Sequence record: FJ483837.1
Origin: Escherichia phage BZ13
Direction: 5' to 3' (one strand)
Length of the DNA: 3,412 bases
Shown piece after piece: positions 1 through 3,294 of the stretch. Under the pieces are notes generated by a model. It did not search any database. It was given only the letters and a program-made list of their open reading frames with translations, and was not told where the DNA came from. The position numbers were made by a program, and so were the translations under genes. How positions within the stretch are numbered: the first letter of the stretch is position 1; every line of letters begins with the position of its first letter.

Positions 1-82
1 GTTTTGCAAGCGACTCATTTCTGCAGTCTTTTCACCATGCCGTTAGGTTTAGATGACGGTATATCCATATACCGGAGGATCT
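1..82 (+). other. 5' untranslated leader, probably 5'-truncated
   Basis: No convincing ORF before the maturation gene; the frame of the maturation ORF is closed by TAG at 50-52. The window begins GTTTTGC rather than the GGG expected at the 5' end of MS2-like genomes, suggesting missing 5' nucleotides. Confidence 0.5.
57..74 (+). promoter_or_regulatory. Stem-loop next to the maturation-gene ribosome binding site
   Basis: CGGTATA (57-63) is the exact reverse complement of TATACCG (68-74), loop TCCA (64-67). The 3' arm abuts/overlaps the Shine-Dalgarno GGAGG (74-78) upstream of ATG 83. Functional role is inferred by analogy to structure-controlled maturation-gene translation in MS2. Confidence 0.35.
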
Positions 83-1255
83 ATGTTTCCGAAGTCGAAT
101 ATAGACAGAAATTACAAGGTTACACTTATATCTTACGACGAGAAAGGGAAGCTTGTTTCCGACGACTCTTTCGAGCAAGTCGAAAACTATCTCTTTCAAA
201 ATCGTTCGAATACGTATAAACCCGGTTATATCCGTCGTGACTTCCGAAGACCAACGAACTTTTGGAATGGCTTTCGCTATTTCAATCAGCCAGTTGGTAC
301 CTTCACTCGGAAACTCTCTGATGGTGGGAGACAAGTTGCTGATTATGGCATCGTGAACCCTAATAAGTTCACGGGCAACAGCCAGCACTTGGGGGACAAC
401 ATGGTTATTTACCCTGGTCCCTTTTCTATTAATATTGATCACCGAGCTTCTGTCGAAGTCCTCAATAAACTTTCGCAATCAAACCTCAATATTGGGGTTG
501 CAATTGCTGAAGCTAAGATGACTGCTTCATTACTCGCTAAACAATCAATAGCTCTCATCAGAGCCTACACTGCTGCAAAGCGCGGTAAATGGCGAGAGGT
601 GCTTTCTCAGCTCCTCATCTCCGAACACCGTTTCAGAGCTCCTGTTAAGGATCTCGGAGGTCGATGGCTCGAACTGCAGTACGGTTGGTTACCTCTTATG
701 AGCGATATGAAAGCTGCATATGATTTGCTTACGCAAACCAAACTGCCTGCTTTCATGCCCTTGAGGGTTACCCGTACCGTTGGCGGAACGCACAATTATA
801 AAGTGCGCAACGTCGAATCTGCAGGGGATACTTGGTCCTATAGCGATCGTTTGTCGGTGAATTACCGAATATGGTATTTCATTTCCGATCCACGGCTCGC
901 ATGGGCTAGTTCCCTTGGGCTTCTAAACCCTCTAGAAATCTATTGGGAGAAGACGCCTTGGTCTTTCGTCGTTGACTGGTTCTTACCTGTTGGTAATCTT
1001 ATAGAAGCCATGAGTAATCCTCTTGGCCTCGATATTATTTCCGGCACGAAGACCTGGCAACTCGAATCAAAACTTAATGCGACGCTTACAGCTTCGGGTT
1101 GGTCTGGAACTGCAAAGTTATCTGCATACGCGAAAGCATATGACAGGTCAACTTTCTACTCCTTTCCAACTCCTATGCCTTATGTGAAATCCCCACTTAG
1201 TGGGCTTCACTTAGCGAATGCATTAGCCTTAATCAACCAACGCCTGAAAAGGTAA
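83..1255 (+). CDS. mat: Maturation (A / assembly) protein, 390 aa from ATG 83; in-frame alternative start at ATG 53 (400 aa)
   Basis: Long + strand ORF ending TAA 1253-1255. GGAGG at 74-78 lies 4 nt upstream of ATG 83; ATG 53 has only a weak AGG upstream. The translation contains blocks recalled from the MS2 A protein (e.g. [16 protein letters not shown] vs MS2 [16 protein letters not shown]; [16 protein letters not shown] vs DARLAWLSSLGILNPL; SFVVDW; C-terminal ALALI-QRL). First gene of the canonical levivirus order. Confidence 0.88.
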
Positions 1256-1271: not shown

Positions 1272-1664
1272 ATGGCAACTTTACGCAGTTTCGTACTCGT
1301 CGATAATGGCGGTACGGGGAATGTTACTGTCGTTCCTGTTAGCAATGCCAACGGCGTCGCTGAGTGGCTTTCTAATAACTCGCGCAGTCAAGCTTATCGC
1401 GTGACTGCCAGTTATCGTGCGTCAGGCGCGGACAAGCGCAAGTACACCATCAAACTTGAAGTACCGAAAATCGTTACTCAAGTTGTTAACGGTGTCGAGC
1501 TGCCTGTTTCCGCATGGAAGGCTTATGCCTCTATTGACCTGACCATCCCGATCTTTGCTGCAACTGACGATGTGACTGTTATTTCCAAGTCACTCGCTGG
1601 TCTGTTCAAAGTTGGGAACCCTATCGCTGAAGCTATCTCTTCGCAGAGCGGCTTCTACGCGTAA
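1272..1664 (+). CDS. cp: Coat (capsid) protein, 130 aa including initiator Met
   Basis: ORF 1272-1664 with GGAG (1260-1263) 8 nt upstream of the ATG. The translation (MATLRSFVLVDNGGTGNVTVVPVSNANGVAEWLSNNSRSQAYRVT...IPIFAATDD...GNPIAEAISSQSGFYA) is plainly homologous to the MS2 coat (ASNFTQFVLVDNGGTGDVTVAPSNFANGVAEWISSNSRSQAYKVT...) and, from memory, nearly identical to the group II phage GA coat. Mature length of 129 aa matches MS2/GA coats. Confidence 0.95.
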   Translation: MATLRSFVLVDNGGTGNVTVVPVSNANGVAEWLSNNSRSQAYRVTASYRASGADKRKYTIKLEVPKIVTQVVNGVELPVSAWKAYASIDLTIPIFAATDDVTVISKSLAGLFKVGNPIAEAISSQSGFYA

Positions 1665-1855
1665 TGGGTCTGAAAGCAAAACATAAGGAAAACCTATGTT
1701 CCGATTCACAGAGATCGAAAAGACTCTATGTATGGATCGCACTCGCGATTGTGCTGTCCGATTTCACGTCTATCTTCAGTCATTGGATATGGGGTCTTCT
1801 GATCCTCATTCTCCAGACTTTGATGGACTTGCCTACCTTCGTGATGAGTGTTTAA
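1664..1855 (+). CDS. lys: Lysis protein (MS2 L-like single-gene lysis protein), 63 aa, +1 frame overlapping coat stop and replicase 5' region
   Basis: ATG 1664-1666 shares its A with the coat stop codon TAA 1662-1664 (UAAUG). Basic N-terminus (KAKHK...RSKR) is followed by a hydrophobic segment LYVWIALAIVLSDFTS that closely matches the MS2 L segment LYVLIFLAIFLSKFTN, including the conserved Leu-Ser dipeptide (codons at 1754-1759). Position between coat and replicase in a different frame is canonical for MS2-like phages. Confidence 0.8.
   Translation: MGLKAKHKENLCSDSQRSKRLYVWIALAIVLSDFTSIFSHWIWGLLILILQTLMDLPTFVMSV
1681..1699 (+). promoter_or_regulatory. Translational operator hairpin (coat-protein binding site) containing the replicase start codon
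   Basis: ACAUAAGGAAAACCUAUGU: stem 1681-1685 paired with 1695-1699, unpaired A at 1686, G1687-C1694 and G1688-C1693, loop AAAA 1689-1692. The replicase AUG (1696-1698) is in the 3' arm. Same architecture as the MS2 operator ACAUGAGGAUUACCCAUGU (7 bp stem, bulged A, 4-nt loop), with A rather than U at loop position -5. Confidence 0.8.
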
Positions 1856-3294
1856 CTAAACATCCTTCACTAGGAAACAGTAATTCGGATGCACGCCGTA
1901 AGGAATTGGCATATGCCAAACTTATGGATAGTGATCAAAGATGCAAAATCCAAAACAGTAACGGATACGACTACTCTCACATCGAAAGTAGCGTACTGAG
2001 TGGTATACTCAAGACTGCTCAGGCCCTTGTGGCGAACTTGCTTACGGGTTTTGAATCTCACTTCCTGAACGATTGTTCATTCTCCAATGGAGCCTCACAA
2101 GGGTTCAAGTTGCGGGATGCAGCGCCGTTTAAGAAGATCGCTGGGCAAGCAACCGTTACAGCTCCTGCTTATAACATTGCCGTGGCCGCCGTTAAAACGT
2201 GCGCGCCGTGGTATGCTTATATGCAGGAAACGTATGGCGATGAAACCAGATGGTTTCGTCGGGTATACGGCAACGGTTTGTTTTCTGTTCCGAAGAACAA
2301 TAAAATAGATCGGGCTGCCTGTAAGGAGCCTGATATGAATATGTACCTTCAGAAGGGGGCGGGATCTTTTATAAGAAAACGCCTTCGCTCCGTCGGTATA
2401 GATCTTAACGATCAAACGTGCAATCAGGAATTAGCCCGACTTGGCAGCATTGATGGTTCACTCGCTACTATTGATCTTAGTAGCGCTAGTGATTCTGTCT
2501 CTGACCGCCTTGTCTGGGATTTACTTCCGCCACACGTTTATTCATACCTCGCTCGCATCCGTTCATCGTTCACTATGATCGATGGTCGGTTGCACAAGTG
2601 GGGCCTGTTTTCTACTATGGGAAACGGCTTTACATTCGAACTCGAGTCCATGATTTTCTGGGCTTTGAGTAAGAGTGTTATGCTGTCCATGGGTGTTACT
2701 GGCTCATTAGGCATCTACGGTGATGATATAATCGTCCCCGTTGAGTGTGCCCCAACTCTCCTTAAGGTACTATCCGCTGTGAACTTTCTTCCTAATAAGA
2801 AGAAGACGTTCACTACGGGTTACTTTCGTGAAAGTTGTGGTGCTCACTTCTTTAAAGGTGCCGACATGAAACCTTTTTACTGCAAGCGGCCAATGGAAAC
2901 CCTTCCCGATGTCATGTTGCTATGCAACAGGATAAGGGGTTGGCAGACCGTTGGTGGAATGTCAGATCCGCGGCTCTTTCCTATTTGGAAGGAGTTTGCT
3001 GATATGATTCCGCCGAAGTTTAAGGGTGGATGCAACCTGGATCGCGATACTTACCTCGTTTCACCGGATAAACCTGGTGTCACATTGGTTCGAGTCGCTA
3101 AGGTACGTTCTGGTTTTAACCATTCGTTCCCGTACGGCCATGAAAATGGTCGCTACGTCCACTGGTTGCATATGGGATCGGGAGAAGTTCTCGAGACCAT
3201 ATCCTCCGCCAGGTTTAGGTGCAAACCTAACTCGGAATGGAGAACACAGATCCCTCTATTTCCTCAGGAATTAGAGGCCTGCGTTCTCTCCTGA
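1696..3294 (+). CDS. rep: RNA-dependent RNA replicase, beta subunit (532 aa)
   Basis: Long + strand ORF ending TGA 3292-3294. Catalytic YGDD motif at nt 2716-2727 within GIYGDDIIVP; AAGGA (1685-1689) lies 6 nt upstream of the ATG. Last and largest gene of the levivirus order, with length close to the MS2 replicase. Confidence 0.95.
   Translation: MFRFTEIEKTLCMDRTRDCAVRFHVYLQSLDMGSSDPHSPDFDGLAYLRDECLTKHPSLGNSNSDARRKELAYAKLMDSDQRCKIQNSNGYDYSHIESSVLSGILKTAQALVANLLTGFESHFLNDCSFSNGASQGFKLRDAAPFKKIAGQATVTAPAYNIAVAAVKTCAPWYAYMQETYGDETRWFRRVYGNGLFSVPKNNKIDRAACKEPDMNMYLQKGAGSFIRKRLRSVGIDLNDQTCNQELARLGSIDGSLATIDLSSASDSVSDRLVWDLLPPHVYSYLARIRSSFTMIDGRLHKWGLFSTMGNGFTFELESMIFWALSKSVMLSMGVTGSLGIYGDDIIVPVECAPTLLKVLSAVNFLPNKKKTFTTGYFRESCGAHFFKGADMKPFYCKRPMETLPDVMLLCNRIRGWQTVGGMSDPRLFPIWKEFADMIPPKFKGGCNLDRDTYLVSPDKPGVTLVRVAKVRSGFNHSFPYGHENGRYVHWLHMGSGEVLETISSARFRCKPNSEWRTQIPLFPQELEACVLS

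What the first reader, a model, noticed from the sequence alone, without database searches (positions are those of the whole stretch)
1662..1855. Lysis gene starts on the coat stop codon (UAAUG) and has no Shine-Dalgarno of its own: likely termination-reinitiation coupling
ATG 1664-1666 overlaps the coat stop TAA 1662-1664, and no SD-like sequence precedes it, suggesting lysis-protein expression depends on ribosomes terminating coat translation. The 63-aa product keeps the L-type layout (basic N-terminus, hydrophobic segment, conserved Leu-Ser at codons 31-32, nt 1754-1759) and aligns with MS2 L over LYV-I-LAI-LS-FT. Overlapping-frame single-gene lysis proteins are easy to miss in annotation.
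Basis: partly seen in the sequence, partly recalled or inferred. Interest (0 to 1): 0.6.

Follow-up and report, generated by a model that had tools for sequence, protein, structure and literature searches.

The report
Known GA-type phage lysis gene start
This is the already annotated lysis gene of a GA-like (genogroup II) RNA coliphage, and its start on the coat gene's stop codon (UAAUG, no ribosome-binding site) is a published textbook model of termination-reinitiation coupling, so the reading is correct but not new.

Summary

- **Identity:** the window is a genogroup II F-specific ssRNA coliphage (Emesvirus japonicum), 94.5% identical to phage GA.
- **Junction:** coat ends at TAA 1662-1664. 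The lysis ORF starts at ATG 1664-1666 and runs 63 codons to TAA 1853-1855. The nearest anti-Shine-Dalgarno pairing upstream is at background level.
- **Protein:** it passes Pfam's MS2-lysis model. It has a basic N-terminus, a hydrophobic stretch and Leu31-Ser32, aligned to the MS2 L motif. It is the only alternative-frame ORF kept open in all relatives, and it suppresses synonymous change in the overlapped replicase codons.
- **Prior knowledge:** GA's 1986 GenBank record annotates the same 1-nt overlap. Inokuchi et al. (2000; 2023, PMC9955659) showed that GA lysis translation depends strictly on ribosomes finishing coat at UAAUG. The ~95% identical KU1 protein lyses E. coli on induction. The exact 63-aa protein is deposited as ACT66719.1, 'lysis protein, phage BZ13', on a 3412-nt record.
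- **Variant lineage:** the KU1 lineage carries an 18-nt insertion that splits the UAAUG, also published (Groeneveld 1996).

Novelty: already known. Interest: low.

The parts
1272..1664 (+). Coat protein gene (130 codons plus TAA 1662-1664). It is the upstream ORF whose terminating ribosomes feed the lysis gene.
   Evidence: ORF list. Pfam Levi_coat PF01819, E = 1.5e-38. Homologous to GA coat 1325-1717.
1662..1666 (+). UAAUG junction. The coat stop UAA and the lysis start AUG share A1664.
   Evidence: Read directly. Identical in GA and BZ13 DL20. It is the GA junction used as a coupling model (PMC9955659).
1642..1663 (+). The 22 nt upstream of the lysis AUG. It contains no Shine-Dalgarno element.
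   Evidence: Anti-SD duplex of -2.5 kcal/mol, which is the background median. The other three genes score -5.9 to -9.5.
1664..1855 (+). Lysis (L / Sgl) gene: 63 codons plus TAA 1853-1855. From 1696 onward it is read in the +1 frame relative to the replicase gene.
   Evidence: PF11125 at 29.3 bits, above the cut-off of 25. 95-97% identical to GA, DL20, KU1 and T72 L, and 38% to MS2 L. The frame is open in all relatives while six control ORFs are not. The exact protein is ACT66719.1, 'lysis protein'.
1664..1723 (+). L domain 1, the basic N-terminus (residues 1-20): 6 Lys/Arg plus 1 His against 2 Asp/Glu.
   Evidence: Composition count.
1724..1759 (+). L domains 2 and 3: the hydrophobic stretch LYVWIALAIV (residues 21-30) followed by the Leu31-Ser32 dipeptide (1754-1759).
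   Evidence: Alignment to MS2 LYVLIFLAIFLS. The Kyte-Doolittle 19-residue mean reaches 1.77 for residues 21-39.
1760..1852 (+). L C-terminal region (residues 33-63). It is mostly hydrophobic, with a Kyte-Doolittle mean up to 1.89 at residues 45-63.
   Evidence: Hydropathy scan.
1629..1655 (+). Imperfect hairpin inside the last coat codons. It is homologous to GA 1683-1707, which the GA record annotates as 'pot. stem loop structure; pot. function in lysis gene control'.
   Evidence: GA annotation. MFE fold. Retained in the 7 sequences that cover it in the consensus fold, with one C-G/U-G change and one A.C mismatch in the window. No compensatory changes.
1680..1700 (+). Replicase operator hairpin (the coat-protein binding site). 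It contains the replicase SD AAGGA and ATG 1696, and L-translating ribosomes read through it.
   Evidence: GA annotation 1733-1753, 'pot. binding site coat protein'. Predicted in all folds and invariant in all sequences compared.
1696..3294 (+). Replicase beta-subunit gene. Its first 53 codons are overlapped by L.
   Evidence: PF03431, E = 1.2e-218. Synonymously variable codons are 4/53 in the overlap against 169/479 outside, Fisher p = 1e-5.

Best explanation
Nt 1664-1855 encode the single-gene lysis protein (L-type, 'type II' Sgl) of a GA-like genogroup II RNA coliphage. The gene has no ribosome-binding site of its own. It is translated only by ribosomes that have just terminated coat synthesis at UAA 1662-1664. 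A fraction of them re-engage the overlapping AUG 1664-1666, one base back and therefore in a different frame. Lysis protein output is thus a fixed small fraction of coat output and appears only once coat is heavily translated. The 63-aa product inserts in the inner membrane through its hydrophobic region and triggers autolysis without blocking net peptidoglycan synthesis.

What is shown in this sequence: the UAAUG junction, the lack of an SD, the lack of any alternative start, family membership, and purifying selection on the overlapping frame.

What is shown experimentally in close relatives (literature): strict dependence on coat translation and on the AUG in GA, and lytic, type II behaviour of the KU1 protein.

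What is inferred by homology: that both apply to this strain.
For: - Sequence: UAAUG and no SD. No in-frame start between TGA 1628 and AUG 1664.
- Identity: 94.5% identical to GA over the whole genome. 130 of 136 nt identical from -90 to +45 around the junction.
- Annotation: the GA, DL20, KU1 and T72 records all annotate the homologous lysis CDS. GA and DL20 have the same 1-nt overlap.
- Family: Pfam Phage_MS2_lysis above its gathering score. The LYV.I.LAI.LS.FT block is shared with MS2 L.
- Overlap constraint: 4/53 against 169/479 synonymously variable replicase codons, p = 1e-5, and the lowest of all sliding windows. The overlap is 97.5-98.1% identical to KU1 and T72, against 84-85% for the rest of the replicase gene.
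- Control: only the L frame stays open in all relatives, out of 7 alternative-frame ORFs.
- Experiments on GA (PMC9955659, which also summarises Inokuchi 2000, EMBO J 19:3788): lysis translation is performed strictly by ribosomes that translated coat. Mutating the coat AUG or the AUG of UAAUG abolishes it. About 25% of upstream ribosomes reinitiate in the reporter.
- Experiments on KU1: Sgl-KU1 lyses E. coli on arabinose induction, and mDAP incorporation continues until lysis (PMC10614894). It groups with MS2 L in suppressor screens (PMC10229422).
- Deposit: the exact protein is ACT66719.1, 'lysis protein' of phage BZ13, on a 3412-nt record.
Against: - Nothing here was tested on this strain itself. 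Coupling and lysis are transferred from GA (94.5% nt identity) and KU1 (95% aa identity).
- The window has one substitution (U to C at 1649) that creates an A.C mismatch in the hairpin just upstream of the stop. Its effect on coupling efficiency is unknown.
- How the ribosome gets from UAA to AUG is still debated in the field: release and rebinding, or 30S or 70S scanning (PMC12548453).
- The molecular target of L-type proteins is unknown.
Confidence: 0.95

Rival explanations
1. Coupling works by RNA unfolding rather than true reinitiation. Coat-translating ribosomes melt a structure that hides the lysis start, and a fresh 30S subunit then initiates de novo.
For: A conserved hairpin (1629-1655) and an ACCC(1618-1621)/GGGU(1666-1669) pairing flank the start. 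GA's record flags the hairpin as possible lysis-gene control. Unfolding is the model discussed for MS2, where the spacing is -50 nt (PMC12548453).
Against: - There is no SD to recruit a free 30S subunit.
- In the ensemble, the A and U of the AUG are mostly unpaired in GA-type sequences (pairing probability 0.03-0.46), so masking is weak and inconsistent.
- The local fold is not exceptional (z = -1.8), and no compensatory changes are seen.
- With a 1-nt overlap, the terminating ribosome physically covers the start.
- GA experiments found that free ribosomes are excluded from the SD-less downstream ORF.
Confidence: 0.04
2. The ORF is a chance open frame in the coat-replicase junction, and lysis is carried out by something else, as in Qbeta where the maturation protein does it.
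For: Alternative-frame ORFs of similar length are common in this window. One of them, 2441-2578, is even more hydrophobic.
Against: - Pfam MS2-lysis hit above its cut-off.
- The frame is open in all 8 group II sequences, while every control ORF is broken in the KU1 lineage.
- Strong synonymous suppression in the overlapped replicase codons.
- The KU1 homologue is experimentally lytic.
Confidence: 0.005
3. The lysis protein is made by independent, SD-less initiation at AUG 1664 by free ribosomes, for example S1-mediated binding to the A-rich region downstream. The overlap with the coat stop would then be incidental.
For: The sequence just downstream (GGGUCUGAAAGCAAAACAUAAGGAAAA) is A-rich and mostly unpaired in predicted folds.
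Against: In GA reporter constructs carrying this same downstream sequence, removing upstream ORF translation abolished downstream expression.
Confidence: 0.01

Closest known systems
Phage GA lysis gene and its coat-lysis UAAUG junction (X03869; Inokuchi et al. 1986, 2000, 2023)
   Same: Same species-level lineage, at 94.5% nt identity. Same UAAUG, same absence of an SD, same 63-codon ORF, and 95% aa identity. The junction context is identical at 130 of 136 nt.
   Different: Three amino-acid differences in L (Q16E, I49Y, S62N, written window to GA). There are two substitutions in or near the upstream hairpin (1643, 1649).
Phage BZ13 strain record carrying ACT66719.1 (lysis protein, 3412-nt genome)
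   Same: The protein sequence is identical, and the deposited record has the same length as the window. The window is very probably this record.
   Different: None detected at the protein level. The nucleotide record itself was not in the searched phage collection.
Phage KU1 / BZ13 T72 lysis gene (Groeneveld et al. 1996)
   Same: Homologous L protein, 95% identical, and the same position and frame relative to the replicase gene. It is experimentally lytic and type II.
   Different: An 18-nt insertion sits exactly between the A and the UG of the GA-type AUG. The start becomes UUG, 17 nt after the coat stop. The insertion forms a CUACGCC-UAA-GGCGUAG hairpin with the stop in its loop. There is also one extra codon.
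Phage MS2 L protein and its coat-coupled expression (Pfam PF11125)
   Same: Same family, four-domain layout and aligned LS motif. Expression depends on coat translation.
   Different: MS2 L is 75 aa. It starts 47 nt upstream of the coat stop (CDS 1678 against a coat end at 1727), so it overlaps the coat gene, and it is only 38% identical. The extra ~16 N-terminal residues are absent here.

Membership tests
L-type (MS2 L-like, 'type II') levivirus single-gene lysis proteins / Pfam PF11125 | Sequence matches the family model above its curated threshold | tested here: met
   PF11125 at 29.3 bits against a gathering score of 25, E = 8.8e-7.
L-type (MS2 L-like, 'type II') levivirus single-gene lysis proteins / Pfam PF11125 | Four-domain layout: a basic N-terminus, a hydrophobic domain, a Leu-Ser dipeptide at its C-terminal edge, and a variable C-terminus | tested here: met
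   Residues 1-20 hold 6 K/R and 1 H against 2 D/E. LYVWIALAIV is at 21-30 and L31-S32 aligns to the MS2 LS. The C-terminal 31 residues are hydrophobic. The layout definition is taken from PMC10229422 and PMC10614894.
L-type (MS2 L-like, 'type II') levivirus single-gene lysis proteins / Pfam PF11125 | Embedded at the coat/replicase junction in an alternative reading frame | tested here: met
   Starts on the coat stop and overlaps replicase codons 1-53 in another frame.
L-type (MS2 L-like, 'type II') levivirus single-gene lysis proteins / Pfam PF11125 | Expression alone lyses the host, without arresting net peptidoglycan synthesis | not testable with these tools
   Shown for the 95% identical KU1 protein (PMC10614894), not for this exact sequence.
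L-type (MS2 L-like, 'type II') levivirus single-gene lysis proteins / Pfam PF11125 | Dependence on the chaperone DnaJ through the N-terminal domain (an MS2 L property) | not testable with these tools
   Domain 1 is not conserved among L-like proteins, and they may not need DnaJ (PMC10229422). The window's N-terminus lacks the first ~16 MS2 residues.
Termination-reinitiation translational coupling of the GA coat-lysis (UAAUG, SD-less) type | [quoted passage not shown] | tested here: met
   TAA 1662-1664 and ATG 1664-1666.
Termination-reinitiation translational coupling of the GA coat-lysis (UAAUG, SD-less) type | The downstream ORF lacks its own Shine-Dalgarno sequence | tested here: met
   Anti-SD duplex of -2.5 kcal/mol, the background median. 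The other genes score -5.9 to -9.5.
Termination-reinitiation translational coupling of the GA coat-lysis (UAAUG, SD-less) type | Downstream translation is abolished when upstream translation is prevented, and it requires the AUG of UAAUG | not testable with these tools
   Shown in GA reporter constructs (PMC9955659). The window's junction context is 130/136 identical to GA.
Emesvirus japonicum (genogroup II F-specific RNA coliphages: GA, KU1, BZ13) | Genome-wide nucleotide similarity and the maturation-coat-lysis-replicase gene order | tested here: met
   94.5% to GA and 94.3% to BZ13 DL20 over ~100% of the window. All four genes match their Pfam families.

The most novel reading that the evidence does not exclude
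The conserved imperfect hairpin in the last coat codons (1629-1655) was flagged in 1986 as a possible lysis-gene control element. It might tune how many terminating ribosomes re-engage the AUG. If so, the window's U1649C mismatch, or the KU1 lineage's alternative stop-in-loop hairpin, would set strain-specific lysis timing. My evidence neither supports nor excludes this: the hairpin is retained in the 7 sequences that cover it in the consensus fold, but it lies in coding sequence and shows no compensatory changes.
Probability: 0.2. Interest if true: 0.25.

Novelty: already known. Interest (0 to 1): 0.07.

Why it matters
It matters mainly as a validation. A reader working from raw sequence alone correctly recovered an overlapping single-gene lysis ORF and its unusual mode of expression. 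The biology itself is established. [quoted passage not shown] L-type lysis proteins are under active study because their cellular target is still unknown. This window adds no new information to either question.

Tried and rejected
1. Structural masking of the lysis start codon. I folded 110-nt contexts of all 8 group II sequences and computed pairing probabilities. The G of the start is always paired, but the A and U are mostly unpaired in GA-type sequences (0.03-0.46), and the partners differ between sequences. The consensus fold has no compensatory pairs, and the local fold z-score is only -1.8. I therefore do not claim masking.

2. Rfam scan of the whole window. No family reached its gathering score.

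3. ORF length or the UAAUG itself as statistical evidence. I rejected both, because similar-length alternative-frame ORFs are common here and TG follows A in 8.6% of cases.

4. The primary papers: Inokuchi 2000 (PMC313962) and Chamakura 2017 (PMC5775895). Neither is held in the library, so I relied on later open papers that summarise them.

5. One viral-contig scan for more relatives. It found only GA itself and three KU1-type fragments.

Full report
**What the window is.** The 3412-nt window is a nearly complete genome of a genogroup II F-specific ssRNA coliphage (Fiersviridae, Emesvirus japonicum). Megablast against annotated phage records gives 94.5% identity to phage GA (X03869 / NC_001426) over 100% of the window. 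It gives 94.3% to BZ13 strain DL20 and about 85-86% to KU1 and BZ13 strain T72. The ORF list and Pfam scans recover the canonical gene set:
- maturation protein 83-1255 (PF03863)
- coat 1272-1664 (PF01819, E = 1.5e-38)
- a 63-codon ORF 1664-1855 (PF11125 Phage_MS2_lysis, 29.3 bits against a curated cut-off of 25, E = 8.8e-7)
- replicase 1696-3294 (PF03431, E = 1.2e-218)

**Checking the observation.**
- The coat gene ends in TAA 1662-1664, and ATG 1664-1666 shares its A, giving UAAUG.
- The ORF ends with TAA 1853-1855.
- Leu31-Ser32 is CTG TCC at 1754-1759.
- In the L frame the preceding stop is TGA 1628-1630. No ATG, GTG or TTG lies between it and 1664, so AUG 1664 is the only possible start.

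The 'no Shine-Dalgarno' statement holds quantitatively. The best duplex between the 16S 3' end and the 22 nt upstream is -2.5 kcal/mol, at the 54th percentile of all window positions. The maturation, coat and replicase starts score -9.5, -5.9 and -6.2.

The protein has 6 Lys/Arg and 1 His against 2 acidic residues in its first 20 positions. From residue 21 onward the Kyte-Doolittle 19-residue mean is 1.2-1.9. Aligned with MS2 L, the block L21 Y22 V23. I25. L27 A28 I29. L31 S32. F34 T35 is invariant.

**Is it more than chance?** UAAUG alone and ORF length alone are not. TG follows an A 8.6% of the time in this window. Six other plus-strand alternative-frame ORFs of 36-82 aa exist. Three other lines of evidence are discriminating:
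- **Frame survival.** The L frame is open in all relatives (GA, DL20, KU1, T72). Each of the six control ORFs loses its start or gains internal stops in the KU1/T72 lineage. Three further environmental fragments from IMG/VR (L007-L009) also keep the frame.
- **Synonymous suppression.** Replicase codons overlapped by L show strong suppression of synonymous change. Only 4 of 53 codons vary synonymously, against 169 of 479 elsewhere (Fisher p = 1e-5). This is the lowest of all 53-codon sliding windows.
- **Local identity.** The overlap is 97.5-98.1% identical between the window and KU1/T72, against 84-85% for the rest of the replicase gene.

**What is already known.** GA's 1986 GenBank record annotates coat 1325..1717 and 'put. 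lysis protein' 1717..1908, which is the same 1-nt overlap. It also annotates a stem-loop at 1683-1707 with 'pot. function in lysis gene control' and the coat-binding operator at 1733-1753. DL20, KU1 and T72 all carry an annotated lysis CDS. The exact 63-aa sequence of this window is deposited as ACT66719.1, 'lysis protein [Escherichia phage BZ13]', on a record of 3412 nt, the window's own length.

The coupling mechanism has been demonstrated on this junction. Inokuchi et al. 2023 (PMC9955659) also summarises Inokuchi et al. 2000 (EMBO J 19:3788). [quoted passage not shown] It also reports the following:
- Deletion and substitution analyses found no sequence that allows coat-independent expression.
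- Mutating the upstream AUG, or changing UAAUG to UAAUA, abolishes the reporter.
- About 25% of upstream ribosomes reinitiate in the reporter construct.

The window matches GA at 130 of 136 nt from -90 to +45 around the junction, with no difference between 1650 and 1708.

For protein function, the KU1 homologue (95% identical) lyses E. coli on induction. It does so without stopping mDAP incorporation, which defines it as a type II (L-like) Sgl (PMC10614894). It also clusters with MS2 L in multicopy-suppressor screens (PMC10229422).

**Mechanism, and which steps are shown.**
- **Shown in the sequence:** the stop-start overlap, no SD, no alternative start, family membership, and dual-coding constraint.
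- **Shown in close relatives by experiment:** strict dependence on coat translation and on the AUG, and lytic activity.
- **Inferred:** that both hold for this strain.
- **Unresolved in the field:** whether the ribosome is released and rebinds or scans as 30S or 70S (PMC12548453), and what the cellular target of L-type proteins is.

**RNA structure.** The hairpin homologous to GA's annotated one maps to 1629-1655. An ACCC(1618-1621)/GGGU(1666-1669) pairing and the replicase operator hairpin (1680-1700) are also predicted. However:
- The local fold is unexceptional (z = -1.8).
- No pair shows compensatory change.
- The A and U of the start codon are mostly unpaired in the ensemble of GA-type sequences.

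I therefore attribute the exclusion of free ribosomes to the missing SD, not to structure. The unfolding model remains a minor rival.

**The KU1 lineage.** KU1, T72 and fragments L007-L009 carry an 18-nt insertion exactly between the A and the UG of the GA-type start. The start becomes UUG, 17 nt after the coat stop. The inserted sequence pairs with the end of the coat gene to form CUACGCC-UAA-GGCGUAG, with the stop codon in the loop. This is the feature named in the title of Groeneveld et al. 1996 (cited in PMC12856241). UAAUG is therefore conserved only in the GA sub-lineage (window, GA, DL20), while the L ORF is conserved throughout.

**Verdict.** The feature is already known at every level: gene, protein family, coupling mechanism and exact deposited sequence. 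Interest is low. The only open thread is whether the conserved upstream hairpin tunes reinitiation efficiency.

Noticed in passing
window 1-3 / GA 1-53: The window aligns to GA from GA position 54 onward, so about 53 nt of the 5' UTR are missing. The 3' end (...CACCACCCA) is complete. The genome record is 5'-truncated.
   Followed up: partly
window 53-1255 vs 83-1255: The mechanical ORF caller starts the maturation gene at ATG 53 (400 aa). The strong SD GGAGG at 73-77 (-9.5 kcal/mol) and all relatives' annotations (390 aa) point to ATG 83. ATG 53 has only a weak SD (-3.1).
   Followed up: partly
L002 (KU1) 1718-1735; L004, L007, L008, L009 at homologous positions: An 18-nt insertion splits the GA-type UAA|UG, creates a UUG start 17 nt downstream of the coat stop, and forms a 7-bp hairpin with the coat stop codon in its loop. 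It is present in three environmental IMG/VR fragments as well as in KU1 and T72.
   Followed up: yes
window 2441-2578 (+): A very hydrophobic 45-codon alternative-frame ORF lies inside the replicase gene. It has a TTG start, a Kyte-Doolittle maximum of 2.91, and an LS dipeptide. It is open in GA and DL20 but has 1-2 internal stops in KU1 and T72, so it is probably a chance ORF.
   Followed up: partly
window 1649: A strain-specific U to C change turns an A-U pair of the conserved hairpin just upstream of the coat stop into an A.C mismatch. The other six sequences covering it in the consensus fold keep A-U.
   Followed up: no
window 1680-1700: The replicase operator hairpin (coat-protein binding site, containing the replicase SD and ATG 1696) is invariant in all 8 group II sequences. 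It lies inside the L ORF, so L-translating ribosomes must open it.
   Followed up: partly
window 1696-1855: The L/replicase overlap is the most conserved stretch between the GA and KU1 sub-lineages, at 97.5-98.1% identity against about 84-85% for the rest of the replicase gene.
   Followed up: yes
L001 (GA record X03869) CDS 1717..1908: The GA record's note says 'aa 1-64', but the CDS is 63 codons plus a stop. This is a minor annotation inconsistency.
   Followed up: no
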